Shown here: piece after piece, positions 361-12,882 of the stretch | How positions within the stretch are numbered: position 1 is the stretch's first letter | Layout of the letters: each line of letters opens with the position of its first letter | NCBI RefSeq assembly: GCF_037138995.1 | Contig: NZ_JBAXHI010000063.1 | Coordinates: forward strand, 1 to 13,064 | Reading direction: 5' to 3' | Source of the DNA: Candidatus Chlorohelix sp. | Lineage (GTDB): Bacteria; Chloroflexota; Chloroflexia; Chloroheliales; Chloroheliaceae | Length of the DNA: 13,064 bases | Notes under the pieces: generated by a model | The model's input: only the letters and a program-made list of their open reading frames with translations | Told to the model about the DNA's origin: nothing | Database searches by the model: none | Translations under genes and position numbers: made by a program

Positions 361-933
361 AGAGATTATAAAGGTTACAGTGGGCTAGAGTCTGAAAAGC
401 ATCAGTGGTGCTGGGCGCATTTAATTCGGGATTTCAGGCGAATGAGTGAGCGAGCAGGAGGAATATGGGGCGAAGAGGCTTTGGAGTTAAGTGGGTAGGT
501 ATTTGAGGAATGGCGGGAGTATCGCGAAAGTGAAGGGGAAATGAGCCTGGCGGAGTTGAAAGCAGCCTTGGGGTCAATTAGAGCTGACTTCAAACAACTC
601 TTAAAAGAAGGAGAAACGCACCCTGATAGGGCGGTAAAGAGTTTGAGCAAAGAGCTAAACAAAGCCGAGGCTAGTTTGTGGGTATTTAGTGAGGTGGTTG
701 GGGTGGAACCGACCAATAATGCCGCCGAGAGAGCTTTGCGACCTGCGGTAATTTGGCGAAAGACCTGTTTTGGGTCTCAGAGTGAAGGTGGGTTGCGGTT
801 TGTGGAGCGGATGTTGACGGTGGCAGCCTCCCTCAAGCAGCAAGGGCGAGATTTGATTGAATTTATAACTCAGGCTCTTCGGGCCAAATGGTTTGGTCTG
901 CCTGTTCCTAGTTTAGTCCAAGCTTGTGCCTAG
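361..933 (+). pseudogene. IS66-family transposase (TnpC-like), C-terminal ~190 aa only. 5'-truncated and interrupted by an in-frame TAG at 496-498.
   Basis: The translation contains …DYKGYSGLESEKHQWCWAHLIRDF… and …EPTNNAAERALRPAVIWRKTCFGSQSEGG…SLKQQGRDLIEFITQAL…, which match the conserved IS66 TnpC motifs GY.GY / CWAH.RR.F and DNN.AER.IRP..GRKN.LF.GS..GG…N..P..YL. The frame opens only at 361, directly after AT-rich non-coding DNA. The TAG at 496-498 splits the frame. The ORF track reports only the 541..933 piece. Confidence 0.6.
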
Positions 934-994: not shown

Positions 995-1822
995 TCAACC
1001 TTCATCTTCCTCAGTCGGGATAGTGGTGTCGTTGTCAATAACATTATCATTCGTAGTAGCAACTAGATTATCAGAGTCAGAAGTATCAGTAACGTGATTA
1101 ACTCCAGCTATAATCCAGCCTACACCCTTATTGGGAAAGTGATCCAACTGATTCTGCACTTGGCTGCCCACACTGGCATTGACCGAAGCGTCTAAGGGTC
1201 CTAAGTTCTCTAAATCATCAGTTCCCCCGAACTGTCTATCTATCTTATGGTCAAGTTGCTGATTTTTTTCTAGGGTTTCGTTTGTTTCTTTTTCGTACAA
1301 GGCTCTTAAATTGTTGTTACGTGGCAATTGCTCATTTATAGTCAGATTTTGACCATTTTCTATACTTTCATTATAGTAACCCACCTTTTTTTGAGCTTCG
1401 GCTTTTTGATAGTCCGTCCATGCCTGTTTGTCCTTTACGTTCAAAACAAAAGCGGCAAAGCTCTCTTCATTTTTTCTTAGGTTAGCTTTTTCTTTTTCTT
1501 CCTCTGTTGGTTCATCCATACTGAACACTACTTCGTCTCTATCGGCATCAGTTATTATGGTAGGGTTTGCTTTGTCCTGCTCTTCGGCTTGCCAAATTTG
1601 AAAGTTTGCCCGGATTTTATCCGGGTCTTCAAAAGTATTATTAATATTGTCCAAAATACGTTTCTGAAAAGCGGGATGAACACCTGCTTCTTCTAGGGAG
1701 GCAATAAATTTTTGCTTTAGTTGTGTACCTGTATTAGCATCTCCAGGGATTTGCAACTTTTCTTCTTCACTGAAGCAAGAATCATCTTTATCCTCATCCG
1801 ACTGTTCATAACGTTTCTTCAT
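995..1822 (-). CDS. Highly acidic hypothetical protein (~275 aa, D/E/N/Q-rich, no recognisable domain); last gene of the operon.
   Basis: Long ORF. The preferred start is the internal ATG at 1822 (MKKRYEQ…), which sits 3 nt after the TAA stop of the upstream gene (1825-1827) with GAGGA 5 nt upstream. The track's longer start at 1897 would overlap the upstream gene by 73 nt. Composition is strongly acidic. Function unknown. Confidence 0.6.
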   Translation of the reverse strand: MKKRYEQSDEDKDDSCFSEEEKLQIPGDANTGTQLKQKFIASLEEAGVHPAFQKRILDNINNTFEDPDKIRANFQIWQAEEQDKANPTIITDADRDEVVFSMDEPTEEEKEKANLRKNEESFAAFVLNVKDKQAWTDYQKAEAQKKVGYYNESIENGQNLTINEQLPRNNNLRALYEKETNETLEKNQQLDHKIDRQFGGTDDLENLGPLDASVNASVGSQVQNQLDHFPNKGVGWIIAGVNHVTDTSDSDNLVATTNDNVIDNDTTIPTEEDEG

Positions 1823-1824
1823 TT

Positions 1825-4800
1825 TTATCCTCTGAGTATGGCTGCTATTAACATAAATATACCAAGTACCAGATCCAGTGGTAGGGTAATACACCAAAGC
1901 AAAAGTATCCCTATACCCAAGAAAAACGAAGCCAGGATTGAACGTGGTATAACTTCAAATGCGATTGGTACTGTCATAGGTGGCTGTCCACTGAGTTGTA
2001 TCTGTATCGGAATAATCTGATGACCAGGCGGGCGCAGTGATCTTACATACCCGCTAGTGATAAAAACTCTTTCCCAGATAGTGGTTTGTAGTGAAAAAGA
2101 ATAATTTAAAGTTTGACCACCAAAAGAGGCAGTTGGAGCTAAGATGGTGCTAAAAGAAAAGCCTTCCTGCCCAGGATTTTGTACCGTAACAGTGGTGTAA
2201 CCACCCTGCCCATTACCGTCGCGGCCCATATTTAAAAGTGTTAAAGTTCCGGTGATTATATCGCCTGTGCGTATTGTTGACTGATAATTCAACTTTGCCT
2301 GAATAGACGAAGTTGGTAAATTCGTGTCGCAGTTGCGCAGAAATATCTCTACCACTTCATTTTGATAAAGCTTATTCATATGGGCATCACTACCAATATA
2401 CTGATTCTGCTGCAAGGATTTTGAGGACATTATAGCTTGCTGTTTCAGACGTTCGTTGCGTAATCCGTACTCAAACCATCGAGCAAGTTCACCAGAGGAA
2501 AGATGATGGGGAATCTCGTTCCAATGGCAACGATCTACCGCTGCGATAAAATCTCCCAGTGTCGAGGCTTGTTCGGGTGGGGCAGTAAACTCAAATGGCG
2601 CTCTGGCTTTGATGTTGTATTGCTGTGGTAAACTGGCGACCTCCGGCAGTGGTGTGGCAGGTGGCGGAGTGCTGGTAGGTAATTGCTTATTATAATCGGC
2701 ACGTAGCGCAGGATCCAGCAAAATTCTTTCGGCTTCCTGTAAATACGCCAGCTTACGATTTGCATCATCCTGATCCTCTGGAAAGGGGGAGGTTTGTTGC
2801 TCTTGAAGCTGTTGGCGGGTATGTGCAATGCGTTGGCGAATGAAGTGTTCGCTGGCATCACGTTCTGCCTCGATAAGTTCATAGTAGTTACAAGCCGGAT
2901 TAGATGTAGCTGAGAGTGGCTGCGCTATTGCTTCTGGTGGTGTTTCTACACCAACTATAGAGGCGCGGATAGAGTCTCCATTCTTTCTGATTTTATCTTG
3001 CAGCTCTGTGCGAACATTCGCCAAATTTTTGCTACAATATTCTTCTATCATCTTTTGCGCTTCTTGTGTTTCAGGATCTATATAACTAAAATTGGTTATT
3101 GACCTCCATTCGTCAGGGGGGTTGTTTTTATATAACTTATCCCTAAGCTTATTGGAAGCTGCCAACCCGATTCCCTTGATTATTCCCAATGTTAAATAGC
3201 AAACTATGACCGCCACTAACGAGAAAGCACCTGGAGAATAAGTATAATAAGAATAATGGGGGTGTACAGCTGTATTAAGAGATGCGGTTGCTACCCCAAC
3301 CACTATCATAGGAAACAAAAAGCCTAGCCATGTTGGAATTGCCAGAGTAGCCATGTTTCCTATGCTGAAAAGCGTATATGCAAGCAATCCAAAGAGTAAA
3401 CTACCGGGTATTTCGAGCCATTTATAATTTACCATGTCAAAAATCGCAGCGCTTACACCAACAATGACTGCTAAGACCATGCCTATTACCAAGTTAGCCC
3501 AGCCAAAAGTTAATCCCCAGCGTTTTATGGCGTAGTTAGGGCTATATTTTTCCGGTACTATTTGAACCGAAATTGAAAAGGGATAATTACCAGAAGGTGT
3601 TTCCAACAAAAGTTTGAAATCATTGTAGCGGCTGTTATAGCTCAACTTTGAGCTATCTATTTCAATCATCAAAACAGTATCGCCCTCAATAGCAATACTA
3701 TCCAAACCTCGTACCGAACCGTCTGCATAGCCTAAACGAACTGGACGTTGCGTATTGGTACTCCGAAGAGTACCGTAGAAATAACCACGTCCCTGCCGAG
3801 CAATTTTCAGCAAGCGGTAAAATGGTTGGCGTGTGCGATCTAATGGGCCTAAATTCAGCGCTCCAGTCGGTTGAAACTCTCCTTCTAATCCCATAGCCAA
3901 TAATGGTTGGGGATGAGGTAACATTGGATTAAGCACATGAATAACTTGCTCCAATAATATCCGGCTACTGGAACGGGAATTTCGAATGAGGTCAGCCACG
4001 TTGCGGGCTATGATTCCATCTACCTGTTGCAGCCACTCTACTAGGATACTACCTCCTGGGCTTCGCAAGAGATAAACGGCTTCTTGTGCAGTGCTATCTG
4101 CCAAAACCGAAATTTCTTGAGCGGATGAAGCATAGCGACCTGATCCTAGAACTAGAAGAGGCTTACAATTGAGAGTACGGAGTGGTGCATGCTCCATTAC
4201 TAGCCACCAATAAAAACGGTGAAGGGTAAAACTCCAGTCATTATTGCACTGCCCGACGATTTCTAGGAAACGCTTGCGTGCTATTGCATCTGCTACCCCA
4301 TAACGTAGCCACCCATCCATGTTACCATTACTGCACGCCTGTAAAGCATCTTCCCAACTTTCGGGAGCCATTTGCACCAAATCTACTAGGTCAGCGGCAC
4401 TGTGTATGCCAAGTTGCAAATTACCTATACTGGCTTTAGCCAACGTTTGATTGTATTGTTCGCGTTGTTTAGGGTCTAACAGTTTTGGCAACAACTGATC
4501 CAAAAAACGAATCTTTTCCCTAGCACGTTGCGCAGTCAGGGCATCCACACTTTCGGCAGTTTGGTTTAGAGTTGCGTAAATGCGGCTGTAAGCAGTTTTT
4601 ATTTCTTCTGCACTGGCAGAAGGATTCACACTTAGAATCTCGTAGTAATTACGGGCATGCTCCATCTGGTCGAGTAGCTTGCGCCCGTCTATGTGCTGGA
4701 AGTTATCACCATAACGATGCACGGCTTGCCCGACCCCGGTTTCATGTAAACCGCCTAAGCCGGACTGGTTAAGACCGCCCAAATAACCTTGCCCATTGGA

Positions 4801-4833
4801 AGGTTCCTCAGGTAGCGGATAGGTTGTATTCAT
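1825..4833 (-). CDS. Large polytopic membrane protein (1002 aa) with two J-domain-like modules lacking HPD, a central ~4-helix TM bundle and a C-terminal TM hairpin.
   Basis: J-like module 1 is aa ~60-131 (nt ~4441-4656): NYYEILSVNPSASAEEIKTAYSRIYATL…AREKIRFLDQLLPKLLDPKQREQYNQTL. J-like module 2 is aa ~648-718 (nt ~2680-2892): NYYELIEAERDASEHFIRQRIAHT…ANRKLAYLQEAERILLDPALRADYNKQL. Both follow the J-domain helix I-II and helix III patterns (YYEILGV…EIKKAY… / …AYEVLSDP.KRA.YD), but neither has HPD. Hydrophobic segments lie at aa ~438-558 (nt ~3160-3522) and aa ~966-1000 (nt ~1833-1936). A P/T-rich linker is at aa ~719-735. SD GGAGAGGAAG ~10 nt upstream of the ATG. Confidence 0.8.
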   Translation of the reverse strand: MNTTYPLPEEPSNGQGYLGGLNQSGLGGLHETGVGQAVHRYGDNFQHIDGRKLLDQMEHARNYYEILSVNPSASAEEIKTAYSRIYATLNQTAESVDALTAQRAREKIRFLDQLLPKLLDPKQREQYNQTLAKASIGNLQLGIHSAADLVDLVQMAPESWEDALQACSNGNMDGWLRYGVADAIARKRFLEIVGQCNNDWSFTLHRFYWWLVMEHAPLRTLNCKPLLVLGSGRYASSAQEISVLADSTAQEAVYLLRSPGGSILVEWLQQVDGIIARNVADLIRNSRSSSRILLEQVIHVLNPMLPHPQPLLAMGLEGEFQPTGALNLGPLDRTRQPFYRLLKIARQGRGYFYGTLRSTNTQRPVRLGYADGSVRGLDSIAIEGDTVLMIEIDSSKLSYNSRYNDFKLLLETPSGNYPFSISVQIVPEKYSPNYAIKRWGLTFGWANLVIGMVLAVIVGVSAAIFDMVNYKWLEIPGSLLFGLLAYTLFSIGNMATLAIPTWLGFLFPMIVVGVATASLNTAVHPHYSYYTYSPGAFSLVAVIVCYLTLGIIKGIGLAASNKLRDKLYKNNPPDEWRSITNFSYIDPETQEAQKMIEEYCSKNLANVRTELQDKIRKNGDSIRASIVGVETPPEAIAQPLSATSNPACNYYELIEAERDASEHFIRQRIAHTRQQLQEQQTSPFPEDQDDANRKLAYLQEAERILLDPALRADYNKQLPTSTPPPATPLPEVASLPQQYNIKARAPFEFTAPPEQASTLGDFIAAVDRCHWNEIPHHLSSGELARWFEYGLRNERLKQQAIMSSKSLQQNQYIGSDAHMNKLYQNEVVEIFLRNCDTNLPTSSIQAKLNYQSTIRTGDIITGTLTLLNMGRDGNGQGGYTTVTVQNPGQEGFSFSTILAPTASFGGQTLNYSFSLQTTIWERVFITSGYVRSLRPPGHQIIPIQIQLSGQPPMTVPIAFEVIPRSILASFFLGIGILLLWCITLPLDLVLGIFMLIAAILRG

Positions 4834-4861: not shown

Positions 4862-5173
4862 CTATGAATCCCAGCCCATTTGTTTTCTGATATGCTGGTG
4901 ATACGCTTCCAAAGAACCATACTCCTTGTTTATACGGCGCGTATTTTCCTCTATCGCGTCTAATTCTTTATTCCAGGCTGAACCCCAGCCCTCATCAAAG
5001 CGGGGTATAGGGTGTTCTGATGGGTCGAAGCCAGAGTCGTCCCAATCTCCCTTCGGTGACACACCATAATCGTTCGAGGGTTCAGGATCCGTTTCCAACT
5101 TCTCGTCTTCTGTTATTTCCTGCTCTAACGGTTGGTCTGAAATCTGGTCGTCTTGATCTTCCTGCAAATCCAT
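4862..5173 (-). CDS. Small, highly acidic hypothetical protein (103 aa).
   Basis: ORF with a strong SD (AAGGAGAG, plus 5178-5185) 4 nt upstream of the ATG. It sits 18 nt after the upstream ATPase gene and 28 nt before the next gene. Strongly D/E-rich. No recognisable domain. Confidence 0.6.
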   Translation of the reverse strand: MDLQEDQDDQISDQPLEQEITEDEKLETDPEPSNDYGVSPKGDWDDSGFDPSEHPIPRFDEGWGSAWNKELDAIEENTRRINKEYGSLEAYHQHIRKQMGWDS

Positions 5174-5191: not shown

Positions 5192-8100
5192 TTATTTGGG
5201 AGCTGAAGACTCTTTCTGAGTACTAAATTCCACCATCAAGATTTCGAAAGCACGCGCGTGATAGTCTGACAATAACGTTTTTACTTTTAAAGCATCTTGC
5301 GGGTTGTCTTCCAAGTAAAGCGCACCCATATAAGCTTGAGCGCAATAGCTACTATTCAATTGGAGCATACTAGATGGTTCGGTCAAGTTATAACCCATCT
5401 GTGCAGTTACTCGTTTGATAGCTTTCCCATACTCAGGCCAAACTGAGCTAGGCAAACCGTCCGGTTGGGTGCTTTTAACAGCTTTTGCAAAAGCGATCAT
5501 AAACTCCTGACGGGCAAATTTTGGCAAAGATTTGATCAAAGCCTGAAAAAGACAGTGTCTGGAAGCATTCCAAACGGAACAATGCGTGCAGGTTGGATAA
5601 GGCGCAACCCCCGATTTACCGGGTGTGGTTTTGGGTTGGGGTGCTGCTGGAACAAAAGGTAGGTAACTGCCAAAACTGTGGTCGGGTAGCTTCGTGGCTG
5701 TCAAGCTACGAATACCTGAGTCATCAATAATTGCCAATTTGTTCAAATCATCTATAAGATTGGGCACACCTAGATGAACCGGTCCGAAGGCGCTACCCAC
5801 CAGCAAATGTCCGGTTTGAAGGTTACGAGCATAATCAGTTTGACGTTCATCCAGATTGAGCAACTGACTGTACAATTGGAAACTGTCGGGGTCCTCCAAC
5901 CGATGCATCAATTTCAAATTGCTATTGCCAATAGCTCCTTGAATAAGATTTACCGGCATCTGTTCGGCTATGATAATGCCTTCGCCAAAGCCCCGTACTT
6001 CTGCCAATAGGTTACTGAAGTCTTCACCCGCTGCTCCTTGGGGACTAGCATGGTCCTGGTTAGCCTGGTTATGCCGAGCCATTACCCGGTGCGCTTCTTC
6101 AACTAACGTTACATGCAACTGTTCAGGACGATGGTGTTCAATATACTCGCTGACCAGAACTAGCAGCATACCCATAATCAAGGCTGTATCCTGAGGGGAA
6201 CCAACCCGTCCTATTTCCATTATCACCGGACGTTTCATCATATCTCCGATCTCTATCGAAGACCGTTCCACATTAACCACGCTCCCGGCAGTAGCTATCA
6301 GATCGCGTATGCGAATTTCCGTGGCTTGCTCAATACTGCTCTGGGTTTCTTTGCCGTATTGAAGAGAAGCAGTTTCATTTTGTAAAGCAGCGTAAAACTC
6401 CGTAAAGTTCGGGGCAGGTGGGCTGTCCGGACCTCCCTTGCCTGTTTCAATATTCCAGCCCTTGTTCTCGTAACACTTGCGTAGCGCTGCCCGGTAAATG
6501 GCAGGAAGTGGGTCCCACATTGTAAAAGCGGCATTAAAGCAGCGCATCAGACGACTAATATGCTGTTTCAATAAGACCTTGTCTCCTACTGCAAAGGGAT
6601 TGAAGCGGAATGGTGCAGTAGTTTCATCTCCCAAGGTAAAAACCAATAGATCGAGACAAATAGGTCGACGTTGCACCTCATTCCCAAAATAAAATGCAAA
6701 CTGCTCATTACTCAAGCCATCCAGATTAGCTAGGCTGCGGTAATCCGGTTTGTCAATTGGATAAATCACCAAGAAGGGAATACGATATTTAAGCCAGAGT
6801 TGGGATAGCAGATAAAGACAGGTATTGGTTTTGCCGCTGCCGGTTGTGCCAGAAATCAGAGTGTGGCGAGCAAACTGACTCCAGGGCAGTCCAAAATCTT
6901 CGCCTGTGGACTGACCACGGTGAATAATGTTGCCCAATTTTACACTGTTTTCAATGAGAGAAGACCCCTCTTGCTTTGTCTGTTCATAGCGTGGGGCTAC
7001 AAACGGCTCATCTTTCACTACTACACCAGCCATAAACCCGCTGGCAGGTGGAACAGGTAGCCGAAAAGCGCCGCAGGCTTCTGTGGCAGTAACAATGTAG
7101 CGCAACCGCTCCAGACCAGGCGCTGAAAGGGTAGCCCCCCAAGGGTACTGTTCAAGATAGCGCAAGTTATTGAGTGCAATAGCATGATCGTTGGTTTTTA
7201 CCGGGTCGAACAACTGCCACTGGGTGGGGTAGTCATTTACAGTATTGTTCATACACTCGGAACCGAGTGCTTCCGCTACCGCAGCAGGTGCGCTTTTTTC
7301 ACCGGCAATTTGGATTTTCAGCAAGAAAGTATGGTTTTGTTCTTTTACTAGTTGCGTGTAAACCCAACGTCCTACCCTAGAGCGAAAGACCAGATAAGCG
7401 TTATCGGTGGTAGCTCTTATTCTGTCTTCTCGCTCTAGCACCCTTGTCATGTCATCAAAACGCTGGGCTGCGCCGTTGAGATAAAGGATTTCATCGGCGT
7501 AGAGTGAGGTAGGACGCAAACAAATACTTACCACAGTTCGCTCTTTTTGAGTCGCAAGAGCTTCAAAAAATCGGCTCATCGCACTGAAATCCAGCGATGG
7601 AACCAAAGGATGAACAATGTAATCACCCACCTCCTCCCGCCGTCCTAACCCCATAGCGCTGGTGCGAATCGGTAAGTCCTCAAACTTGCGAATTTCCAAC
7701 AATGTTCCTGGCTCTTTGAGGGCTGCGTACCAGTTAGCGTCCCCAAAAATTTCAAGAAAAGAAGCTTTGTCTGTCAGGGGTTTGAGAGGATAATTAAAAG
7801 GATCCTCAAGAGGGAAATTAGCAGAAAATTTAGCCCACAAGCGCAAAGAGACATCTCTAGCAGTCTTATAATCCGGGTCAAAAACTTTACAAACAAAGGC
7901 TATCCGTATTTTCCCCAGTTTGCCGGGAATAGTACTCGGTTGTTGGATAAAACGTAACTCGTAAGTAGCTTGTTTCTCGCGAAAGGTGGAAATATCATAG
8001 ATGAAACGAATTTGCCGTTTTACAACTTTTCCAATTCTGGAGTCGGCAAAGTCGTTACCACGAAAGCTAGGAATAAAAGGAACTTCGGCTGCCCAAAAAA

Positions 8101-8206
8101 TATGCCAGCCATCAAAGGGTTGGTGTTGTACTCCTTTTTTATCGGCATAACCTGTTTCTATATAGGCAGCTTGTTTTACTTCGTATAGGTAAGGTGTGCT
8201 GAGCAT
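5192..8206 (-). CDS. HerA/FtsK-superfamily P-loop ATPase (1004 aa) with a ~450-aa N-terminal domain of unknown function and a C-terminal Cys/His cluster.
   Basis: Walker A TLISGTTGSGKTNT at aa 450-462 (nt 6827-6850 encode SGTTGSGK). Walker B HVTLVEEAHRV at aa 698-708 is the hhhhEEAH form typical of HerA/DUF87-type ATPases. A sensor-like IIIAEQMPVNL…NSNLKLMHRL follows. A single P-loop domain spans aa ~430-830. No N-terminal TM segments. C-terminal CTHC-x7-HC at aa 873-885 could bind zinc. Confidence 0.8.
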   Translation of the reverse strand: MLSTPYLYEVKQAAYIETGYADKKGVQHQPFDGWHIFWAAEVPFIPSFRGNDFADSRIGKVVKRQIRFIYDISTFREKQATYELRFIQQPSTIPGKLGKIRIAFVCKVFDPDYKTARDVSLRLWAKFSANFPLEDPFNYPLKPLTDKASFLEIFGDANWYAALKEPGTLLEIRKFEDLPIRTSAMGLGRREEVGDYIVHPLVPSLDFSAMSRFFEALATQKERTVVSICLRPTSLYADEILYLNGAAQRFDDMTRVLEREDRIRATTDNAYLVFRSRVGRWVYTQLVKEQNHTFLLKIQIAGEKSAPAAVAEALGSECMNNTVNDYPTQWQLFDPVKTNDHAIALNNLRYLEQYPWGATLSAPGLERLRYIVTATEACGAFRLPVPPASGFMAGVVVKDEPFVAPRYEQTKQEGSSLIENSVKLGNIIHRGQSTGEDFGLPWSQFARHTLISGTTGSGKTNTCLYLLSQLWLKYRIPFLVIYPIDKPDYRSLANLDGLSNEQFAFYFGNEVQRRPICLDLLVFTLGDETTAPFRFNPFAVGDKVLLKQHISRLMRCFNAAFTMWDPLPAIYRAALRKCYENKGWNIETGKGGPDSPPAPNFTEFYAALQNETASLQYGKETQSSIEQATEIRIRDLIATAGSVVNVERSSIEIGDMMKRPVIMEIGRVGSPQDTALIMGMLLVLVSEYIEHHRPEQLHVTLVEEAHRVMARHNQANQDHASPQGAAGEDFSNLLAEVRGFGEGIIIAEQMPVNLIQGAIGNSNLKLMHRLEDPDSFQLYSQLLNLDERQTDYARNLQTGHLLVGSAFGPVHLGVPNLIDDLNKLAIIDDSGIRSLTATKLPDHSFGSYLPFVPAAPQPKTTPGKSGVAPYPTCTHCSVWNASRHCLFQALIKSLPKFARQEFMIAFAKAVKSTQPDGLPSSVWPEYGKAIKRVTAQMGYNLTEPSSMLQLNSSYCAQAYMGALYLEDNPQDALKVKTLLSDYHARAFEILMVEFSTQKESSAPK

Positions 8207-8255: not shown

Positions 8256-9626
8256 TCAAGACAGGCGTGCCTCTAGATATTCGATTACTTCCCGTATTTC
8301 ACTTTCAATTGTCCACTCTTCCGGGTCTAGCAAGGTACACTCGATATTTGCCGACTGATTTTGTCCCTCTACCAGCACTTTTTGTAGAATAGGTGGAACT
8401 GCCGGGTAATCGGAGCCACATAACAAGCATACATAAGCTTGTCGCCCAGAAGAACGTAATTTGAAGTTTACTTCCACCAACCTTTTACCGGTGAGCATGC
8501 CGTTTGGACTGCGTTCCGGGGCATCGTTCGCATCAAGCACATAACTTAATTTTTTCAGCCGGGTTATTGCTTGCACAAAAGAAATACCCTCAGATTTTTC
8601 AGTCGGTGTACTGTTGAAAGCATTTGCACTGAAAGGCACTTGACCAGAGTCCTGTTGGTTTGTCTCAGCGCCAGTAGGCTGGCTAAAACCTCCAGGCGAC
8701 TGGGCATACCCGGTACCCTGTGCCGGTTCAGTTGGCAGATAGTGATTTGGCGCGGGTTGGAAAGCGTTAGGGGCATATTGGTTAGGCATAAAACGGTTTA
8801 CTGGAGCATTAAGATAATCCATACCGCCTCCGCCCATTTGCTGAATAATCTGGGGAGCAATTGCTTGGACATTTTGTTGACCATAGATAAGACTACCGTA
8901 AGTTATTGGAGCGTCGTAGGTAAGATCAATATGCTCACGAGTACCGGCAGCTTGCTCGGTAGCGGTACTAATGGTATTGGGTTGCTTGATCTCAGCTATA
9001 GTAATGTGTTCAACCAGTAAGCCAATGGAATATAAACGAGAGTCTTCGGTCAATGTGCTACGAATGAGGTGGTCTACGTCCACACGGCTAAATAACAGGT
9101 CATGATAATCACAGCGCCCAAAAGCTCGGCGGGTAGCCTGAGTAACACAATCCCGCAACGTTTTAGGAGCCGAAAAAGGGTTACTGCGGATGAAGCGATC
9201 TACCCCAGAATCGCCCCGTACACTCAGCACTTTGTTATCTACCCGAAAATTAACATTAAGGGTTATGGATAACTCGATAGGTTTACCGGAACGTGGCTCT
9301 TGACCATAATGGTTGGTTCTGCCAGTAAATTCATTGTGTACCGCATTAAATTTATCAGCAATCTGAATGCTTTCCTGCCGAGTATTCACAAGGACGAAGC
9401 GAATCTTGGAGTGAAAACCTGGTTTGGCTACACGATGACAGCCTGGCGGTAGAATAGCCCACAATTGATGATTTACATAAACCACCCCTGCCGTATTAGG
9501 TTCGATTTCAACCCCAGCGTTATTAAACAACCAAGACCAAAACCCAACTTCGTTAGTCTCGTCCCGTAAAATTAATACCGGTTCGGAGTTGTATGAGGGT
9601 GAAGGAATATTAGGATAGTTGCTCAT
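8256..9626 (-). CDS. Fusion protein (456 aa): N-terminal SPFH/band-7 (stomatin/prohibitin-like) domain, low-complexity G/Q/P/N/A-rich linker, C-terminal UBC/RWD-like (E2-fold) domain.
   Basis: SPFH-like, aa ~35-216 (nt ~8979-9524): VEIEPNTAGVVYVNHQLWAILPPGCHRVAKPGFH…IELSITLNVNFRVDNKV…TLRDCVTQATRRAFGRCDYHDLLFSRVDVDHLIRSTLTEDSRLYSIGLLVEHITIAEIKQP. This aligns with the HflK/stomatin pattern V.EGE.GVV.RFGK…L.PGLH…V.VD.VV.YRV.DP…TLR.V.G….ELL..R..I…L…WGI.V..V.I.DI.PP. Linker aa ~255-345. E2-fold, aa ~346-456 (nt ~8259-8591): FVQAITRLKKLSYVLDANDA…GRQAYVCLLCGSDYPAVPPILQKVLVEGQNQSANIECTLLDPEEW. Compare UBC …GG.F.L.I.FPEDYPFKPPKV.F.T.I.HPNI…G.ICLDIL…W. The HPN triad is degenerate (QNQ). A Cys is present in the ECTLL position. 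Strong SD AAGGAGA (plus 9636-9642). Confidence 0.75.
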   Translation of the reverse strand: MSNYPNIPSPSYNSEPVLILRDETNEVGFWSWLFNNAGVEIEPNTAGVVYVNHQLWAILPPGCHRVAKPGFHSKIRFVLVNTRQESIQIADKFNAVHNEFTGRTNHYGQEPRSGKPIELSITLNVNFRVDNKVLSVRGDSGVDRFIRSNPFSAPKTLRDCVTQATRRAFGRCDYHDLLFSRVDVDHLIRSTLTEDSRLYSIGLLVEHITIAEIKQPNTISTATEQAAGTREHIDLTYDAPITYGSLIYGQQNVQAIAPQIIQQMGGGGMDYLNAPVNRFMPNQYAPNAFQPAPNHYLPTEPAQGTGYAQSPGGFSQPTGAETNQQDSGQVPFSANAFNSTPTEKSEGISFVQAITRLKKLSYVLDANDAPERSPNGMLTGKRLVEVNFKLRSSGRQAYVCLLCGSDYPAVPPILQKVLVEGQNQSANIECTLLDPEEWTIESEIREVIEYLEARLS

Positions 9627-9657: not shown

Positions 9658-11211
9658 TTAAACACGCAATCGAATTTCACCTTGTACACTGCGCTCATAT
9701 TTAGGCGCTTCCGCTACTGCTTCCAACAACCCATCAGCCCGACAGCGAATAAAGACATTGACCTCGGTCTGGGCTGGTAAATTAGGTAAATCGAACTGAA
9801 GCTCCCCTATAGTAATACACTGGGACAGTTCCGGTGTGTCACCTTGTACCAGAGAAATAACTGCCCCACCAGGGGTATTAGTGTGGTATTGGCGACTAGA
9901 CCAGTTTTGCATGGGCAGTGGGGTGCCCCTTGATAAAATTATGCTGTTAAAGTCCGGCCCATTCGGTCTGGAGGCTACTACCCCGATTGAATAAGGCAAA
10001 ATATCACTCACCTCTAGTCCGCCCAATTCATTACGTACAGCCTCACTTACTCCACCGAGGCGACCTTGGCGACCCTGACTATCCTGTTTGCTTTCTTCTT
10101 CAACTTTGATTTTGCCTGCCATCAATGCGGCACCATGCGCCACTGCTTTATCCGGATTTAGAGCGCTGTTAACTTTCTCTTTGCCAAACTTTCCGCATAG
10201 TCGTTCCCTTACTAAGGGAATACGGCTACTTCCTCCTACCAATAAAACTAGGTCGATTTGCGAAGTCGAAAGTTGCGCCTTTCCGATAGCTTGATCCATC
10301 TTTGTTTCTGCTCGAATAAGCGCCCCCTCAATCAGGCTGTTAAAAGTATCTCGGTTGAGATTTATCTGGTAAGATCTTCCCAACAAATTCAGTCGTAGCG
10401 TTGTTTCATGCCGATTGTGACCGCTCAGCTCTACTTTAGCCTGCTCTGCCCGGCGGCGCAGCTCAAAAAATTCCTGAGGGCCAAAACTGCGACGATCTAC
10501 CTGATGTTGAGAAGCCAGTTGTTGGGCGATATAGCCGATAATAGCTTCATCAAAATCTTTCCCCCCCAGTCGGTTATCGCCATCAGTTGCGAGTACCCGT
10601 ACTCTCCACCCACCGCTTGTTCCGGGTTCCATTCTTAAAATAGTCGCATCGAAAGTGCCTCCTCCTAGGTCATAAACTGCTACATTTTGAGCTACAGGCT
10701 TACGTCGCGCGGTATAATCCAGCGCGGCAGCCGTTGGTTCCGAAACCAACATTATAGAGTTGAACCCAGCTTTTTCCCCTGCTTTACGTGTACGCTCTTT
10801 CCCGCATGCGGTCATATTGGCGGGTACTGTAATAACCACCTGCTCTACAGGTTCATTTACTTCAAACTCTGCTGCTATTTTCAAACCTTTAAGGATTTCG
10901 GCGCTAATGTCTTCCGGTCTATATTGCTGATTGCGAAACTGTCGGACATATTGATCATTTTGATCACCTATCCTGCGTTTTATAAATTCTTCTACTCCTT
11001 TGGGATTAAAAAAACCAAGCTCAACAGCTTCCTGTCCAACCAGAATACGATTTTGGGCTTCATCGAAAAAAACCACGCTTGGCGTTGTATCCTGTCCATT
11101 GACAGATATAATCTCAGGCTTGCCCAGATCGTCTAGGCGTGCGATAGCTGAGAAAGTTGTGCCTAAATCAATACCTACGATCAAAGTTCTACCTCCTAAG
11201 ATTAAGTTCAT
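9658..11211 (-). CDS. Hsp70-family ATPase (517 aa): full actin-like nucleotide-binding domain plus beta-sandwich substrate-binding domain, with the helical lid essentially absent.
   Basis: Hsp70 signatures are present: IVGIDLGTTFSAIA (phosphate-1), VYDLGGGTFDATIL (phosphate-2), LVGGSSRIPLVRERL (adenosine), LVSEPTAAALDY. The C-terminal aa ~400-510 (VSDILPYSIGVVASRPNGPDFNSIILSRGTPLP…AVISLVQGDTPELSQCITIGELQFDLPNLPAQTEVNVFIRCRADGLLEAVAEA) aligns with DnaK SBD-beta (DV.PLSLGIE…IPTK…V.I.V.QGER…N..LG.F.L.GI.PAPRG.PQIEVTFDID.DGIL.V.A). The protein ends ~10 aa after this, so there is no SBD-alpha lid. Confidence 0.88.
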   Translation of the reverse strand: MNLILGGRTLIVGIDLGTTFSAIARLDDLGKPEIISVNGQDTTPSVVFFDEAQNRILVGQEAVELGFFNPKGVEEFIKRRIGDQNDQYVRQFRNQQYRPEDISAEILKGLKIAAEFEVNEPVEQVVITVPANMTACGKERTRKAGEKAGFNSIMLVSEPTAAALDYTARRKPVAQNVAVYDLGGGTFDATILRMEPGTSGGWRVRVLATDGDNRLGGKDFDEAIIGYIAQQLASQHQVDRRSFGPQEFFELRRRAEQAKVELSGHNRHETTLRLNLLGRSYQINLNRDTFNSLIEGALIRAETKMDQAIGKAQLSTSQIDLVLLVGGSSRIPLVRERLCGKFGKEKVNSALNPDKAVAHGAALMAGKIKVEEESKQDSQGRQGRLGGVSEAVRNELGGLEVSDILPYSIGVVASRPNGPDFNSIILSRGTPLPMQNWSSRQYHTNTPGGAVISLVQGDTPELSQCITIGELQFDLPNLPAQTEVNVFIRCRADGLLEAVAEAPKYERSVQGEIRLRV

Positions 11212-11574: not shown

Positions 11575-12882
11575 TCAAACCATTTGGATAAGTTGCTCCC
11601 AAAATGGGGTTATATCACGATTTATCAAATCCTGAGCTTTTGGTAAACACGCTGGGTTCAAGGTAATTTCTGAGATAGAATTCTGCCCAGTAAAAACCTT
11701 TAGAATCTGAGCTTGCGCTAATATCCCCACTATTTTTTCAAAATCGGCGTTACGAACCTTCTCCTGTAAAATCCCTACTGATATTGTTTTACTACCTACC
11801 AAACCATAACCTAGCAGGTAAATTAGAAATTTACGGATGAATTCCGCTTTTGGATGAAGAGTAACGGGTACAACCAGCGGGTTTTCTGTTAGAATAATCT
11901 CCTCTACTACTTTTTTTGTTTCTTCGCTTTCTTCTGCAAGAACTACTTCAGTTTCTGAGGATGAGTCATTTATTAAAGTGGTATACACCACGATGTTAAT
12001 AACTGGTTTTAAGCAAGTAACCTGTGTTATGGAACAAGTTAGAGTAACCCCCTCTGTAGTAGCAGTAGAGCTAAACCGATTTGCCAGAACCTCTTGCACA
12101 ACATTTGCTACCTCACGTGACCCTGTGTATTCTCCTACCAATTCAATGATGCTCAGGTTATTCCAAATTGAGGGGCGCAAGTCAGAAATAGACCAGTATT
12201 CCTGACCAATAAGACTAAAAATCCCGTCATACACTAGGTTTCTCAGGTTTTCTAGAAAGTTCTTTACAACAGGTATAATGTCCTGAAGTTCATCTGGAAC
12301 CGGGAGCAAAAAAGCATAGCCTGTTGGATTTTCGGTAGGAGCAATCACTAACTCAAGATGCACTTCATCATTTGTTATCAAATCTTGTTGTTGGGCAAGT
12401 ATCTCCATATAAGACTGTAACTGAGCTCCACGGTTCTCTTGTGCCACTAGCAAGATAGAGTGATAAGATGCAGGTAGAGATTGTAATATTGTGTCACGGT
12501 TCTGTGCAAACTGTTGGTAATCATGTAATTTCCTCTCAAGTTCCGGGTCTAAATGCAACAGTTGCTGTCTCTCCGTTTCCAGAATTGACTTCCTAAGAAA
12601 TCGTTGACCAGTGACAATAAGATTATCAAGGCAGTCCTGCATAGCTAATTTTAATTTTTCCTGCTCTTCCTGGTTAAGAGTTACGGTTTGTATAGCAAGT
12701 TCCTGCTGCAAACGAACTATATGTGCTTCTTTTATCCTCATGTCACGCTGTAATATTTCAAACTGTGCAACCAAAGAACTCATTTTTGACTGCTCTGTTT
12801 GCAGTTCAATTTCGAGCGATTCCATACGTTCGTGCGCATTATTTCTCAGTAAAGTAAGATTTTCACGTAAAGAGTTAGACAT
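11575..12882 (-). CDS. Coiled-coil protein (435 aa): N-terminal ~130 aa Q/E/L-rich predicted coiled coil, C-terminal domain unrecognised.
   Basis: Long ORF. The ATG abuts the TAG stop of the upstream partial ORF (TAGATG junction). Heptad-like L/I/Q/E periodicity in aa 1-130 (nt ~12493-12882). No catalytic motifs recognised. Confidence 0.7.
   Translation of the reverse strand: MSNSLRENLTLLRNNAHERMESLEIELQTEQSKMSSLVAQFEILQRDMRIKEAHIVRLQQELAIQTVTLNQEEQEKLKLAMQDCLDNLIVTGQRFLRKSILETERQQLLHLDPELERKLHDYQQFAQNRDTILQSLPASYHSILLVAQENRGAQLQSYMEILAQQQDLITNDEVHLELVIAPTENPTGYAFLLPVPDELQDIIPVVKNFLENLRNLVYDGIFSLIGQEYWSISDLRPSIWNNLSIIELVGEYTGSREVANVVQEVLANRFSSTATTEGVTLTCSITQVTCLKPVINIVVYTTLINDSSSETEVVLAEESEETKKVVEEIILTENPLVVPVTLHPKAEFIRKFLIYLLGYGLVGSKTISVGILQEKVRNADFEKIVGILAQAQILKVFTGQNSISEITLNPACLPKAQDLINRDITPFWEQLIQMV

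What the first reader, a model, noticed from the sequence alone, without database searches (positions are those of the whole stretch)
9658..11211. Lidless Hsp70 paralog; catalytic Lys70-equivalent possibly substituted
The NBD motifs and SBD-beta are clearly Hsp70, but the protein stops right after SBD-beta, so there is no alpha-helical lid. By-eye alignment of …RILVGQEAVELGFFNPKG… to DnaK …VLVGQPAKRQAVTNPQN… puts a Val where the catalytic Lys70 sits. D8, E171, D194 and T199 equivalents look conserved. A lidless Hsp70 would hold substrates only transiently, and one lacking Lys70 would hydrolyse ATP poorly. It is co-encoded with HPD-less J-like modules, so the whole chaperone cycle looks rewired.
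Basis: partly seen in the sequence, partly recalled or inferred. Interest (0 to 1): 0.6.

Follow-up and report, generated by a model that had tools for sequence, protein, structure and literature searches.

The report
Lidless Hsp70 with HPD-less J partners
This gene encodes a naturally lid-less Hsp70 chaperone whose catalytic residues, including the lysine, are all conserved. It belongs to a large, unstudied clade that sits beside odd J-like membrane proteins and a big HerA/VirB4-type ATPase, probably as part of a membrane-associated defence-type machine.

Summary
The ORF at 9658-11211 (minus strand) is a real Hsp70 with a nucleotide-binding domain, linker and beta substrate-binding domain. 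It has no alpha-helical lid: it ends at the DnaK-505 equivalent, and a TAA is followed by the next gene's ribosome-binding site. The claimed loss of catalytic Lys70 is an alignment error. Query K78 aligns with DnaK K70 and is Lys in 119 of 119 homologues.

The protein belongs to a large clade of ~500-525-aa lidless Hsp70s. These recur next to J-like proteins whose HPD is replaced (HHD, or absent), a ~1000-aa HerA/VirB4-like ATPase and, in Chloroflexota, an SPFH protein with an RWD-like tail. A sister locus in Oscillochloris keeps SPFH and the ATPase but carries E1/E2 genes instead of Hsp70/J. Flanks often carry defence genes.

The window's copy (Candidatus Chlorohelix) is also an outlier at coupling residues: Y145N, F146M, D148A, R151K, N170S and Q433P.

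Best reading: a catalytically competent Hsp70 arm dedicated to an undescribed, membrane-associated, probably conflict-type system. Its function is inferred, not shown.

The parts
9658..11211 (-). Lidless Hsp70 CDS. 517 aa from the ATG at 11211; more likely 508 aa from the TTG at 11184, which has AGGAGG 7 nt upstream. TAA stop at 9658-9660.
10078..11184 (-). Nucleotide-binding domain (aa 10-378). D15, K78, E158, D181, T186 and D188 correspond to DnaK D8, K70, E171, D194, T199 and D201.
10978..10980 (-). Codon for K78, the true equivalent of DnaK catalytic K70. Lys in 119/119 homologues.
11023..11025 (-). It aligns with DnaK K55 of the K55-E267 cleft salt bridge. This position is K or R in 102/119 homologues.
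10798..10821 (-). ANMTACGK (aa 131-138), replacing the family and DnaK motif AYF(D/N)DxxR. These are window-specific losses of Y145, F146, D148 and R151. The change is not a frameshift artefact.
10000..10077 (-). Clade-specific insertion plus interdomain linker (aa 379-404; linker LEVSD corresponds to DnaK VLLLD).
9661..9999 (-). SBD-beta (aa 405-517). It ends at the DnaK-505 equivalent. There is no helix A/B lid and not even the ~20-aa tail that the rest of the clade keeps.
8256..9626 (-). SPFH/Band-7 protein with a Q/P/G-rich linker and a C-terminal RWD-like domain (CGSDYPAVPP). It begins 31 nt after the Hsp70 stop.
5192..8206 (-). 1004-aa HerA/VirB4-like P-loop ATPase. Walker A GTTGSGKT lies at 6827-6850 and Walker B-like LVEEAH at aa 698-706. 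It has a ~420-aa N-terminal domain and a C-terminal helical/Cys-containing region.
4862..5173 (-). 103-aa acidic protein with no detectable homologues. Operon member by position only.
1825..4833 (-). 1002-aa polytopic membrane protein with two HPD-less J-like domains. Hydrophobic clusters lie at aa 439-560 and 959-1002.
4441..4650 (-). J-like domain 1 (aa 62-131). Pfam DnaJ scores 30.7 bits against a cut-off of 27.8. SVD replaces HPD.
2680..2889 (-). J-like domain 2 (aa 649-718). It scores 43 bits against an HMM built only from relatives. SPF replaces HPD.
995..1822 (-). 275-aa acidic, low-complexity protein, the last gene of the cluster. The longer TTG ORF reaching 1897 overlaps the previous gene.

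Best explanation
The gene encodes a catalytically intact, natively lid-less Hsp70 (NBD, linker and SBD-beta). It is not DnaK, HscA or HscC. It belongs to a large, uncharacterised clade of ~500-525-aa 'DnaK derivates'.

Proposed mechanism:
1. The Hsp70 is the ATP-driven arm of a dedicated multi-gene system, not a general folding chaperone.
2. J-like domains that have lost the HPD trigger sit on a polytopic membrane protein. They tether the Hsp70 at the membrane through a re-wired interface.
3. The open, lid-less SBD-beta engages a partner segment with fast on/off kinetics.
4. Loss of the K55-E267 cleft bridge, together with the absence of GrpE, makes nucleotide exchange intrinsic.
5. Together with an SPFH-RWD scaffold and a HerA/VirB4-like hexameric ATPase, the module most likely controls assembly or activation of a membrane-associated conflict (anti-phage type) system.

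Shown here by computation: gene structure, fold, residue conservation, conserved neighbourhood, and the swap with an E1/E2 module.
Inferred: ATPase competence, fast kinetics, tethering by J-like domains, and the defence role.
For: Identity and fold:
- Pfam HSP70, E=8.6e-84.
- AF2 pLDDT 90.8. Best PDB fold matches are ATP-state docked DnaK/BiP, TM 0.84-0.86.
- NCBIfam DnaK and HscA scores are far below their cut-offs: 277 vs 648 and 238 vs 709.

Catalytic set:
- D8, K70, P143, D194, T199 and D201 are conserved in the window protein and in 119/119 homologues; E171 is conserved in the window protein and in 118/119.

Lidlessness is clade-wide:
- 94 of the 119 listed homologues are under 550 aa, and the remaining 25 are longer (650-870 aa), most of them carrying vWA-type Pfam domains.

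Re-wiring:
- K55 is V in the window. K55-E267 slows ADP release in DnaK (PMC8215388).
- Y145N, F146M, R151K, N170S and Q433P each occur in 0/119 homologues, and D148A in 1/119.
- D148A in DnaK abolishes substrate stimulation of the ATPase (PMC8215388).
- The J-like census in related loci gives HHD 32, HPD 4, HHK 3, and the rest varied.
- R167 and Q378, the partners of J-domain D35, are canonical only in the GrpE-containing variants and in the two 689-aa Hsp70s of loci L049 and L067.

Neighbourhood:
- Hsp70, SPFH-RWD, J-like arrays and the HerA-like ATPase co-occur in every Anaerolineae-type locus with enough flank: L001+L007, L005/L009, L008, L010-L013, L016, L017 and L086.
- Hsp70, an HPD-less J-like-TPR protein and the HerA-like ATPase co-occur in Oscillatoriales: L003, L059, L060, L064 and L080.
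- A variant has GrpE, two lidless Hsp70s, J-like proteins and the HerA-like ATPase (L088).
- At least 12 longest-contig lengths coincide between the two top-120 hit lists, which points to shared contigs.

Module swap and context:
- Oscillochloris trichoides has SPFH-RWD and the HerA-like ATPase together with ThiF/E1, E2-CBASS and RWD genes, and no Hsp70.
- Defence genes lie in the flanks: PglZ/BrxL/McrBC (L092), caspase (L001), NACHT (L003) and TIR (L005). PADLOC also hits flanking ORFs.
- The window's own upstream neighbour belongs to a family paired with UvrD-like helicases beside GmrSD and caspase genes.

ATPase:
- The fold matches VirB4, HerA and the HerA subunits of SIR2-HerA and DUF4297-HerA defence complexes.
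Against: - There is no experimental datum.
- The defence-island evidence is anecdotal and has no background control.
- No recognisable effector (nuclease, NADase, pore-former) was found in the window's cluster.
- None of the Hsp70, SPFH or J-like proteins hits PADLOC.
- About 60 more distant HerA-like loci have no Hsp70 within 10 kb. One Bacillota variant has Hsp70s, GrpE and a J-like protein but no HerA. The partnership is therefore frequent but not obligatory.
- The window copy's unique substitutions at coupling residues could instead reflect relaxed selection.
- A direct J-like/Hsp70 interaction was not modelled.
- The nearest Hsp70 relative is only 41% identical, so this exact architecture (a single 1002-aa double-J membrane protein) is so far a singleton.
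Confidence: 0.55

Rival explanations
1. One reading: an ATPase-crippled Hsp70 that lacks catalytic Lys70 and acts as a passive, slowly hydrolysing holder.
For: Only the by-eye alignment of GQEAVEL to GQPAKRQ. CoCoNuT CnuD Hsp70-like domains with degenerate ATPase motifs show that such proteins exist elsewhere (PMC11090510).
Against: K78 aligns with K70 in HMMER and MAFFT alignments and is invariant in 119/119 homologues. The other catalytic residues are also kept in the window protein. The Val is at K55.
Confidence: 0.03
2. A housekeeping, specialised membrane-protein chaperone analogous to E. coli HscC with its membrane-anchored J-proteins DjlB and DjlC. It would serve assembly or quality control of a membrane complex (SPFH cage, ATPase) in filamentous bacteria, with no role in conflict.
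For: - HscC is also GrpE-independent, has an L1,2 insertion and a reduced lid, and works with co-encoded membrane J-proteins that carry a non-canonical HPE (PMC8215388; PMC10410713).
- SPFH proteins classically scaffold membrane quality control.
- The window cluster has no identifiable toxic effector.
Against: - The distribution is sporadic and patchy, and the architectures are highly variable.
- J-like paralogues occur in tandem arrays of up to ~10.
- The Hsp70/J module is replaced by an E1/E2 module in a sister locus.
- Defence genes lie in the flanks.
Confidence: 0.2
3. A dedicated secretion or translocation apparatus. The VirB4/HerA-like hexamer would be the translocase and the membrane-tethered lidless Hsp70 a pulling or ratchet motor, in analogy to mtHsp70 with Pam18 and the J-like Pam16.
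For: - The best fold match of the ATPase over its full length is the VirB4 (TrwK) subunit of a type IV secretion system.
- The J-like domains sit on a polytopic membrane protein.
- HPD-less J-like partners are known from the mitochondrial import motor (own knowledge).
Against: - No other secretion-system components, pilins or substrates were recognised.
- The ATPase has no predicted TM segment.
- Matches to HerA of defence complexes are equally good over the ATPase core.
Confidence: 0.12
4. A decaying gene or an assembly artefact: a DnaK truncated by a premature stop or contig error, with coupling residues drifting.
For: The window copy is the unique outlier at six otherwise near-invariant positions, and it lacks the ~20-aa C-terminal tail kept by the clade.
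Against: - The ORF is intact at 517 codons, and the identical protein is encoded on two independently assembled contigs, L089 and L090.
- All catalytic residues are intact.
- Lidlessness is shared by the listed homologues of the clade.
- There is no frameshift signature at ANMTACGK.
- The downstream gene is tightly coupled, with its own ribosome-binding site.
Confidence: 0.04

Closest known systems
DnaK (canonical bacterial Hsp70)
   Same: It shares the NBD fold, all catalytic residues, the proline switch P143, a hydrophobic linker ending in Asp, and the SBD-beta sandwich with P419. The model superposes on ATP-state DnaK 4B9Q (TM 0.86, rmsd 2.5 A).
   Different: It has no SBD-alpha lid or C-terminal tail. 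A 20-30-aa insertion precedes the linker, and DnaK residues ~76-101 are deleted. The J-contact residues R167 and Q378 are not kept. The K55-E267 bridge is lost in this copy. No GrpE or DnaJ lies in the cluster. NCBIfam DnaK scores 277 bits against a cut-off of 648.
HscC with DjlB/DjlC (E. coli)
   Same: HscC is also a specialised Hsp70 encoded beside membrane-anchored J-proteins that have a non-canonical HPD (HPE). It is GrpE-independent, lacks the cleft salt bridges, has an insertion in loop L1,2 and a reduced lid (PMC8215388; PMC10410713).
   Different: HscC keeps a shortened lid and is 550-580 aa. Its J-proteins keep His and Pro. It has no SPFH or HerA-like partner. No HscC model was available for a direct score.
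Ssz1-Zuo1 (eukaryotic ribosome-associated complex)
   Same: Ssz1 is an atypical Hsp70 that forms a stable, dedicated complex with a J-protein. 6SR6 appears among the fold hits. That Ssz1 naturally lacks the lid is from my own knowledge.
   Different: Ssz1 is eukaryotic and ribosome-bound. Ssz1 does not need ATP hydrolysis (own knowledge). Zuo1 keeps HPD, which it uses for a different Hsp70 (Ssb).
'DnaK derivates' of Myxococcus and Anaeromyxobacter (FEBS J 2026, PMC13580251)
   Same: The review explicitly describes bacterial DnaK paralogues with shortened or deleted lids and altered linkers. [quoted passage not shown]
   Different: The review gives no gene-neighbourhood or partner analysis. The HerA-like, SPFH-RWD and HPD-less J-like context reported here is not mentioned.
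Hsp70 NBD/SBD modules in prokaryotic conflict systems (GTPase-centric systems, Kaur et al. 2020; CoCoNuT CnuD, Bell et al. 2024)
   Same: These are Hsp70-family proteins, some with GrpE and DnaJ-fused partners, embedded in NTP-dependent conflict systems of mostly multicellular or filamentous bacteria. A VirB4/HerA-like ATPase accompanies some CoCoNuT operons (PMC7159879; PMC11090510).
   Different: Their core partners differ (DO/GAP1-N2 GTPases with tubulin, or McrBC with HEPN). CnuD has degenerate ATPase motifs, whereas here the motifs are intact. Those systems have no SPFH-RWD protein and no HPD-less J-like membrane proteins.
HerA-scaffolded anti-phage systems (SIR2-HerA, DUF4297-HerA)
   Same: The window's 1004-aa ATPase matches their HerA subunits in sequence and in fold.
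   Different: The window protein is about twice as long, with a VirB4-like N-terminal domain. Its partners are Hsp70, J-like and SPFH proteins rather than a SIR2 or nuclease effector.

Membership tests
Hsp70 superfamily | Actin-like NBD with the catalytic set D8/K70/E171/D194/T199/D201 (DnaK numbering) | tested here: met
   Pfam HSP70 E=8.6e-84. All six residues are conserved.
Hsp70 superfamily | Interdomain linker plus a beta-sandwich substrate-binding domain | tested here: met
   AF2 model. HMMER aligns aa 402-501 to DnaK 392-489.
Canonical DnaK | Alpha-helical lid (SBD-alpha) and C-terminal tail | tested here: not met
   The protein ends at the DnaK-505 equivalent. The Pfam match stops at profile position 484 of 599.
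Canonical DnaK | Reaches the NCBIfam DnaK equivalog cut-off | tested here: not met
   276.6 bits vs 648, and 271.6 vs 822.55.
Canonical DnaK | Works with GrpE; cleft salt bridges K55-E267 and R56-E264 | tested here: not met
   K55 is V63, R56 is E64 and E264 is R253. No GrpE was detected among the eight ORFs of at least 100 aa that were scanned against Pfam and NCBIfam.
HscA | Reaches the NCBIfam HscA cut-off | tested here: not met
   237.8 bits vs 708.55.
HscC | 550-580 aa with a shortened lid, an L1,2 insertion and a DjlB/C-type partner | tested here: inconclusive
   The L1,2 insertion and the membrane J-like partner are present. The lid is wholly absent and the length is 508-517 aa. No HscC profile was available.
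J-domain proteins | Four-helix J-domain sequence profile | tested here: met
   J1 scores 30.7 bits on Pfam DnaJ against a cut-off of 27.8. J1 and J2 score 51.6 and 43.0 bits against an HMM built from relatives only.
J-domain proteins | HPD tripeptide between helices II and III | tested here: not met
   SVD in J1 and SPF in J2. In related loci: HHD 32, HPD 4, others about 25.
HerA/FtsK/VirB4 P-loop ATPases | Walker A and B motifs and the HerA-type core fold | tested here: met
   GTTGSGKT and LVEEAH. PDB HerA hits at about E=2e-8. Foldseek matches VirB4 and HerA at E down to 1e-13. Pfam DUF87 scores 23.1 bits, just under the 23.2 cut-off.
SPFH/Band 7 | Pfam Band_7 above the gathering score | tested here: met
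   31.5 bits vs 23.6.
Known anti-phage systems (PADLOC-DB v2) | System proteins match models of a described or candidate system | tested here: not met
   There are no hits for the Hsp70, SPFH or J-like proteins. The ATPase gives only weak generic HerA and mad8 hits.
Anti-phage / conflict system (functional class) | Confers protection against phage or other mobile elements | not testable with these tools
   Only context is available: defence genes in the flanks and the swap with an E1/E2 module.

The most novel reading that the evidence does not exclude
The lidless-Hsp70 clade, its HPD-less (HHD or degenerate) J-like membrane proteins, the SPFH-RWD scaffold and the VirB4/HerA-like ATPase together form a previously undescribed family of membrane-associated immune systems. 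These occur mainly in filamentous bacteria (Chloroflexota, Oscillatoriales). In them an Hsp70 cycle, uncoupled from the canonical HPD trigger and from GrpE, has been repurposed as the sensing or activation switch. That switch is evolutionarily interchangeable with a ubiquitin-like E1/E2 module.
Probability: 0.35. Interest if true: 0.8.

Novelty: new variant of a known kind. Interest (0 to 1): 0.55.

Why it matters
Reviews of bacterial Hsp70s recognise DnaK, HscA and HscC, and call the many truncated 'DnaK derivates' functional dark matter (PMC8215388, PMC13580251).

This locus and its relatives give that dark matter a concrete, testable context. There is a defined partner set: J-like domains that have replaced HPD by HHD or lost it, an SPFH-RWD protein, and a VirB4/HerA-like ATPase. 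There is also a natural module swap with E1/E2 enzymes.

If the system is an immune or membrane-remodelling machine, it would show how the Hsp70 engine can run without a lid, without the HPD trigger and without an exchange factor. It would also add a chaperone-based logic to prokaryotic defence.

Practical lesson: Lys55 and Lys70 of DnaK are easy to confuse by eye.

Tried and rejected
- A search for close relatives of the Hsp70 in GTDB genomes found none. A look-up of the identical protein P0001 was not on record.
- A frameshift as the cause of ANMTACGK was rejected, because the other frames contain stops.
- A lid in another frame or downstream was rejected, because the next gene starts 31 nt later.
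- PADLOC and PHROGs scans of the cluster gave only generic hits.
- Eight literature searches for the Hsp70, SPFH, HerA and J-like combination, or for Hsp70-based defence, found no description of this cluster.
- I tested whether the 435-aa upstream coiled-coil protein is a GrpE-like exchange factor or a system member. It has no Pfam hit and no similarity to the proteins that sit next to Hsp70 in other loci. Its homologues sit after UvrD-like helicases without any Hsp70, so I treat it as a separate neighbouring module.
- The first index-based search wrongly suggested that this protein is an orphan. The exhaustive HMMER search corrected that.
- BLAST found no similarity between the small acidic proteins (103 aa, 275 aa) and accessory genes of related loci.
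- Strict covariation between J-motif type and the Hsp70 YF(D/N)D motif does not hold. Cyanobacterial loci have HPD-less J-like domains but keep YFDD.
Full report
OBSERVATION. The window carries a run of minus-strand genes:
- a 435-aa coiled-coil protein (11575-12882);
- the Hsp70 ORF (9658-11211, 517 aa);
- an SPFH protein (8256-9626);
- a 1004-aa P-loop ATPase (5192-8206);
- a 103-aa acidic protein (4862-5173);
- a 1002-aa membrane protein with a DnaJ-type domain (1825-4833);
- an acidic 275-300-aa protein (995-1897).

The Hsp70 assignment is secure. Pfam HSP70 matches with E=8.6e-84 over profile positions 1-484 of 599. An AlphaFold2 model built on 48 homologues has pLDDT 90.8. It shows an NBD (aa 10-378), a short insertion, a linker strand (400-404) and an SBD-beta sandwich (409-501), and nothing further. 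Its best PDB matches are ATP-state, domain-docked DnaK and BiP (TM 0.84-0.86). The last residue aligns with DnaK 505. A TAA at 9658-9660 is followed by AAGGAG and then the next gene's ATG at 9626. The protein is therefore genuinely lid-less. The likely true start is the TTG at 11184, with AGGAGG 7 nt upstream, giving 508 aa. Two gene calls on record use it, and a third calls the 517-aa form.

THE LYS70 CLAIM IS WRONG. HMMER against PDB DnaK chains aligns query ...FIKRRIGDQ with DnaK ...AIKRLIGRR. MAFFT alignments with E. coli DnaK agree. Query K78 is DnaK K70, and that position is Lys in all 119 listed homologues. The Lys there is K55, so V63 corresponds to K55. K55-E267 and R56-E264 are the two salt bridges across the nucleotide cleft, and their absence gives HscA a 700-fold higher ADP off-rate (Mayer 2021, PMC8215388). 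In the clade, K55 is K or R in 102/119 and E267 is E in 91/119. The window copy has V63, E64 and R253 at K55, R56 and E264. D8, K70, P143, E171, D194, T199 and D201 are all conserved in the window protein; among the 119 homologues all are invariant except E171, which is E in 118.

WHAT IS UNUSUAL ABOUT THIS COPY. Within its own clade the window protein is the lone outlier at positions that couple the NBD to SBD-beta and to the J-domain:
- Y145N, F146M, R151K, N170S and Q433P each occur in 0/119 homologues;
- D148A occurs in 1/119.

The stretch ANMTACGK replaces AYF(D/N)DxxR. It is not a frameshift artefact. In DnaK, D148A abolishes substrate stimulation of the ATPase but not stimulation by DnaJ. 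The copy also lacks the ~20-residue tail that the rest of the clade retains after SBD-beta.

THE CLADE AND ITS PARTNERS. The database search returned thousands of Hsp70-family hits. Ninety-four of the best 119 non-identical hits are under 550 aa, and the remaining 25 are longer (650-870 aa), most with vWA-type Pfam domains. The nearest non-identical relative is 41% identical. NCBIfam scores are far below the DnaK and HscA cut-offs. Neighbourhoods of relatives are strikingly similar:
- In Anaerolineae-type loci, Hsp70 (512-531 aa) is followed by an SPFH protein, by several (up to about ten) tandem paralogues that combine a J-like domain, a double zinc ribbon and TM helices, and by a ~1000-aa DUF87/HerA-like ATPase 41-45% identical to the window's.
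- In Oscillatoriales (for example Oscillatoria nigro-viridis PCC 7112), a J-like-TPR-TM protein, the ATPase, small proteins, a coiled-coil protein and a 503-518-aa Hsp70 co-occur.
- A further variant has GrpE, two lidless Hsp70s, J-like proteins and the ATPase. A Bacillota variant has GrpE, two Hsp70s and a J-like protein only.
- At least twelve longest-contig lengths coincide between the top-120 Hsp70 and top-120 ATPase hit lists, which points to shared contigs.
- About 60 more distant HerA-like loci lack an Hsp70 within 10 kb. The ATPase family is therefore broader than the partnership.

THE J-LIKE DOMAINS. The window's 1002-aa protein has two. J1 (aa 62-131) scores above the Pfam DnaJ gathering threshold. 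J2 (aa 649-718) scores 43 bits against an HMM built only from relatives. At the HPD position J1 has SVD and J2 has SPF. Across related loci the non-redundant census is HHD 32, HPD 4, HHK 3, and about 20 other forms. Replacement of HPD is therefore a system-level trait. In DnaK-DnaJ, H33 bonds the L391 backbone, P34 packs on P419, and D35 bonds R167 and Q378. In this clade P419 is kept, but R167 and Q378 are canonical only in the GrpE-containing variants and in the two 689-aa Hsp70s of loci L049 and L067. The interface has co-diverged. Covariation is not strict: cyanobacterial copies keep YFDD alongside HPD-less J-like partners.

THE OTHER COMPONENTS. The ATPase has Walker A GTTGSGKT and Walker B LVEEAH. 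It matches HerA chains in sequence. Its AF2 model (pLDDT 82.6) matches VirB4/TrwK over most of its length, and matches HerA, DndH-C and the HerA subunits of the SIR2-HerA and DUF4297-HerA defence complexes over the core.

The SPFH protein ends in a domain with a YPxxPP-type motif. That domain gives a weak Pfam RWD hit in a homologue. It also aligns with a stand-alone protein that has a weak Pfam RWD hit in Oscillochloris trichoides DG-6. In that organism, SPFH-RWD and the ATPase (43% identity) sit with ThiF/E1, E2-CBASS and RWD genes and no Hsp70 or J-like gene. This is a module swap.

Flanks of related loci carry PglZ/BrxL/McrBC, caspase, NACHT and TIR genes. A PADLOC scan of 113 flanking ORFs gave further hits, but there was no control.

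The window's upstream 435-aa gene belongs to a family of ~450-aa proteins (63 clusters). Members of that family follow UvrD-like helicases beside GmrSD, caspase and MZB-helicase genes, without any Hsp70. I therefore treat it as a separate neighbouring defence-island module.

Source names on the 435-aa and ATPase proteins give Candidatus Chlorohelix sp., Chloroflexota.

MECHANISM (INFERRED). The intact catalytic set implies a working ATPase. Without a lid, peptide release should be fast, because the lid substantially lowers dissociation rates in DnaK. Without K55-E267 and without GrpE, exchange should be intrinsic. HPD-less J-like domains on a polytopic membrane protein most plausibly tether the Hsp70 rather than trigger it. 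Together with the SPFH-RWD scaffold and the hexameric ATPase, this suggests a membrane-associated, NTP-gated assembly. The patchy distribution, the paralogue arrays, the E1/E2 swap and the defence-gene neighbours favour a conflict-type role. A housekeeping membrane-chaperone role of the HscC/DjlBC kind, or a translocation motor, cannot be excluded.

COMPARISON WITH KNOWN SYSTEMS AND NOVELTY. Lidless bacterial 'DnaK derivates' are acknowledged but uncharacterised (PMC13580251). Hsp70-like modules occur in other predicted conflict systems with different partners (PMC7159879, PMC11090510). Eight full-text searches found no description of the Hsp70, HPD-less J-like, SPFH-RWD and HerA/VirB4-like combination. 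I rate it a new variant of a known kind, with moderate interest. The headline claim (lost Lys70) is false. The locus nevertheless anchors a conserved, testable partner set for an unexplored Hsp70 clade.

Noticed in passing
window 11575-12882 (-); L093 5937-7241; L094 10001-11377: The 435-aa coiled-coil protein upstream of the Hsp70 looked like an orphan in the indexed search. Exhaustive HMMER found 63 homologous clusters of ~435-470 aa. The two relatives examined each follow a ~950-aa UvrD-like helicase, beside GmrSD_N and caspase genes (L093) or beside an MZB/Helicase_C gene pair (L094). This is probably a separate two-gene defence module, and its helicase would lie beyond the window and contig end.
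   Followed up: partly
L091 (Oscillochloris trichoides DG-6, GL501402.1 134229-157039): SPFH-RWD and the HerA/VirB4-like ATPase (43% identical to the window's) sit with ThiF/E1, E2-CBASS and a stand-alone RWD protein instead of Hsp70 and J-like genes. This suggests interchangeable Hsp70 and ubiquitin-like modules on a common SPFH-ATPase core.
   Followed up: partly
window 8256-8600 approx. (C-terminus of the SPFH protein): The C-terminal ~100 aa carry a CxxxYPxxPP motif that is conserved in relatives. A homologue gives a weak Pfam RWD hit (E=0.006). An RWD/UBC-like domain fused to SPFH appears unusual.
   Followed up: partly
L001, L005/L009, L006, L007, L086, L092: These loci carry tandem arrays of several (up to about ten) paralogous proteins, each with an N-terminal J-like domain (mostly LVTHHDP, that is HPD changed to HHD), a double zinc ribbon, a coiled coil and variable C-terminal TM helices. 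Some arrays (L001/L007, L006) also have one large paralogue with HPN or true HPD.
   Followed up: partly
window 11184-11211: The annotated ATG start has no Shine-Dalgarno sequence. An in-frame TTG at 11184 has AGGAGG 7 nt upstream and is used by two of the three gene calls on record. The protein is probably 508 aa.
   Followed up: yes
window 541-933 (+): This is a fragment of an IS66-family transposase: NCBIfam profile positions 280-386 of 387. It lies just downstream of the cluster. Independent assemblies also break ~270 bp upstream of the 435-aa gene. Both hints point to a mobile or variable region.
   Followed up: no
window 995-1897 (-): The 300-aa TTG ORF overlaps the end of the 1002-aa gene by 73 nt. 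The ATG at 1822 (275 aa) is the start used by the gene call on L089. The protein is acidic and of low complexity, with no homologues detected.
   Followed up: partly
L087 and L088: These variants of the system have GrpE and two adjacent lidless Hsp70 paralogues. In both loci one of the two paralogues keeps R167 and Q378; in L088 the other keeps them as well. The L087 J-like domain keeps NHPD, whereas both L088 J-like domains lack HPD.
   Followed up: no
window 5192-5700 approx. (C-terminal ~170 aa of the ATPase): Nearly invariant Cys residues (C873, C876, C885, C955 in the 43-sequence alignment) lie in the segment PYPTCTHCSVWNASRHC. They suggest a metal-binding module at the ATPase C-terminus.
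   Followed up: no
L086 7872-9959: The 695-aa protein between the ATPase and the Hsp70 has a C-terminal PDFVV...EIVDAKGY stretch. By eye this resembles a PD-(D/E)xK nuclease motif and could be an effector. It was not tested.
   Followed up: no
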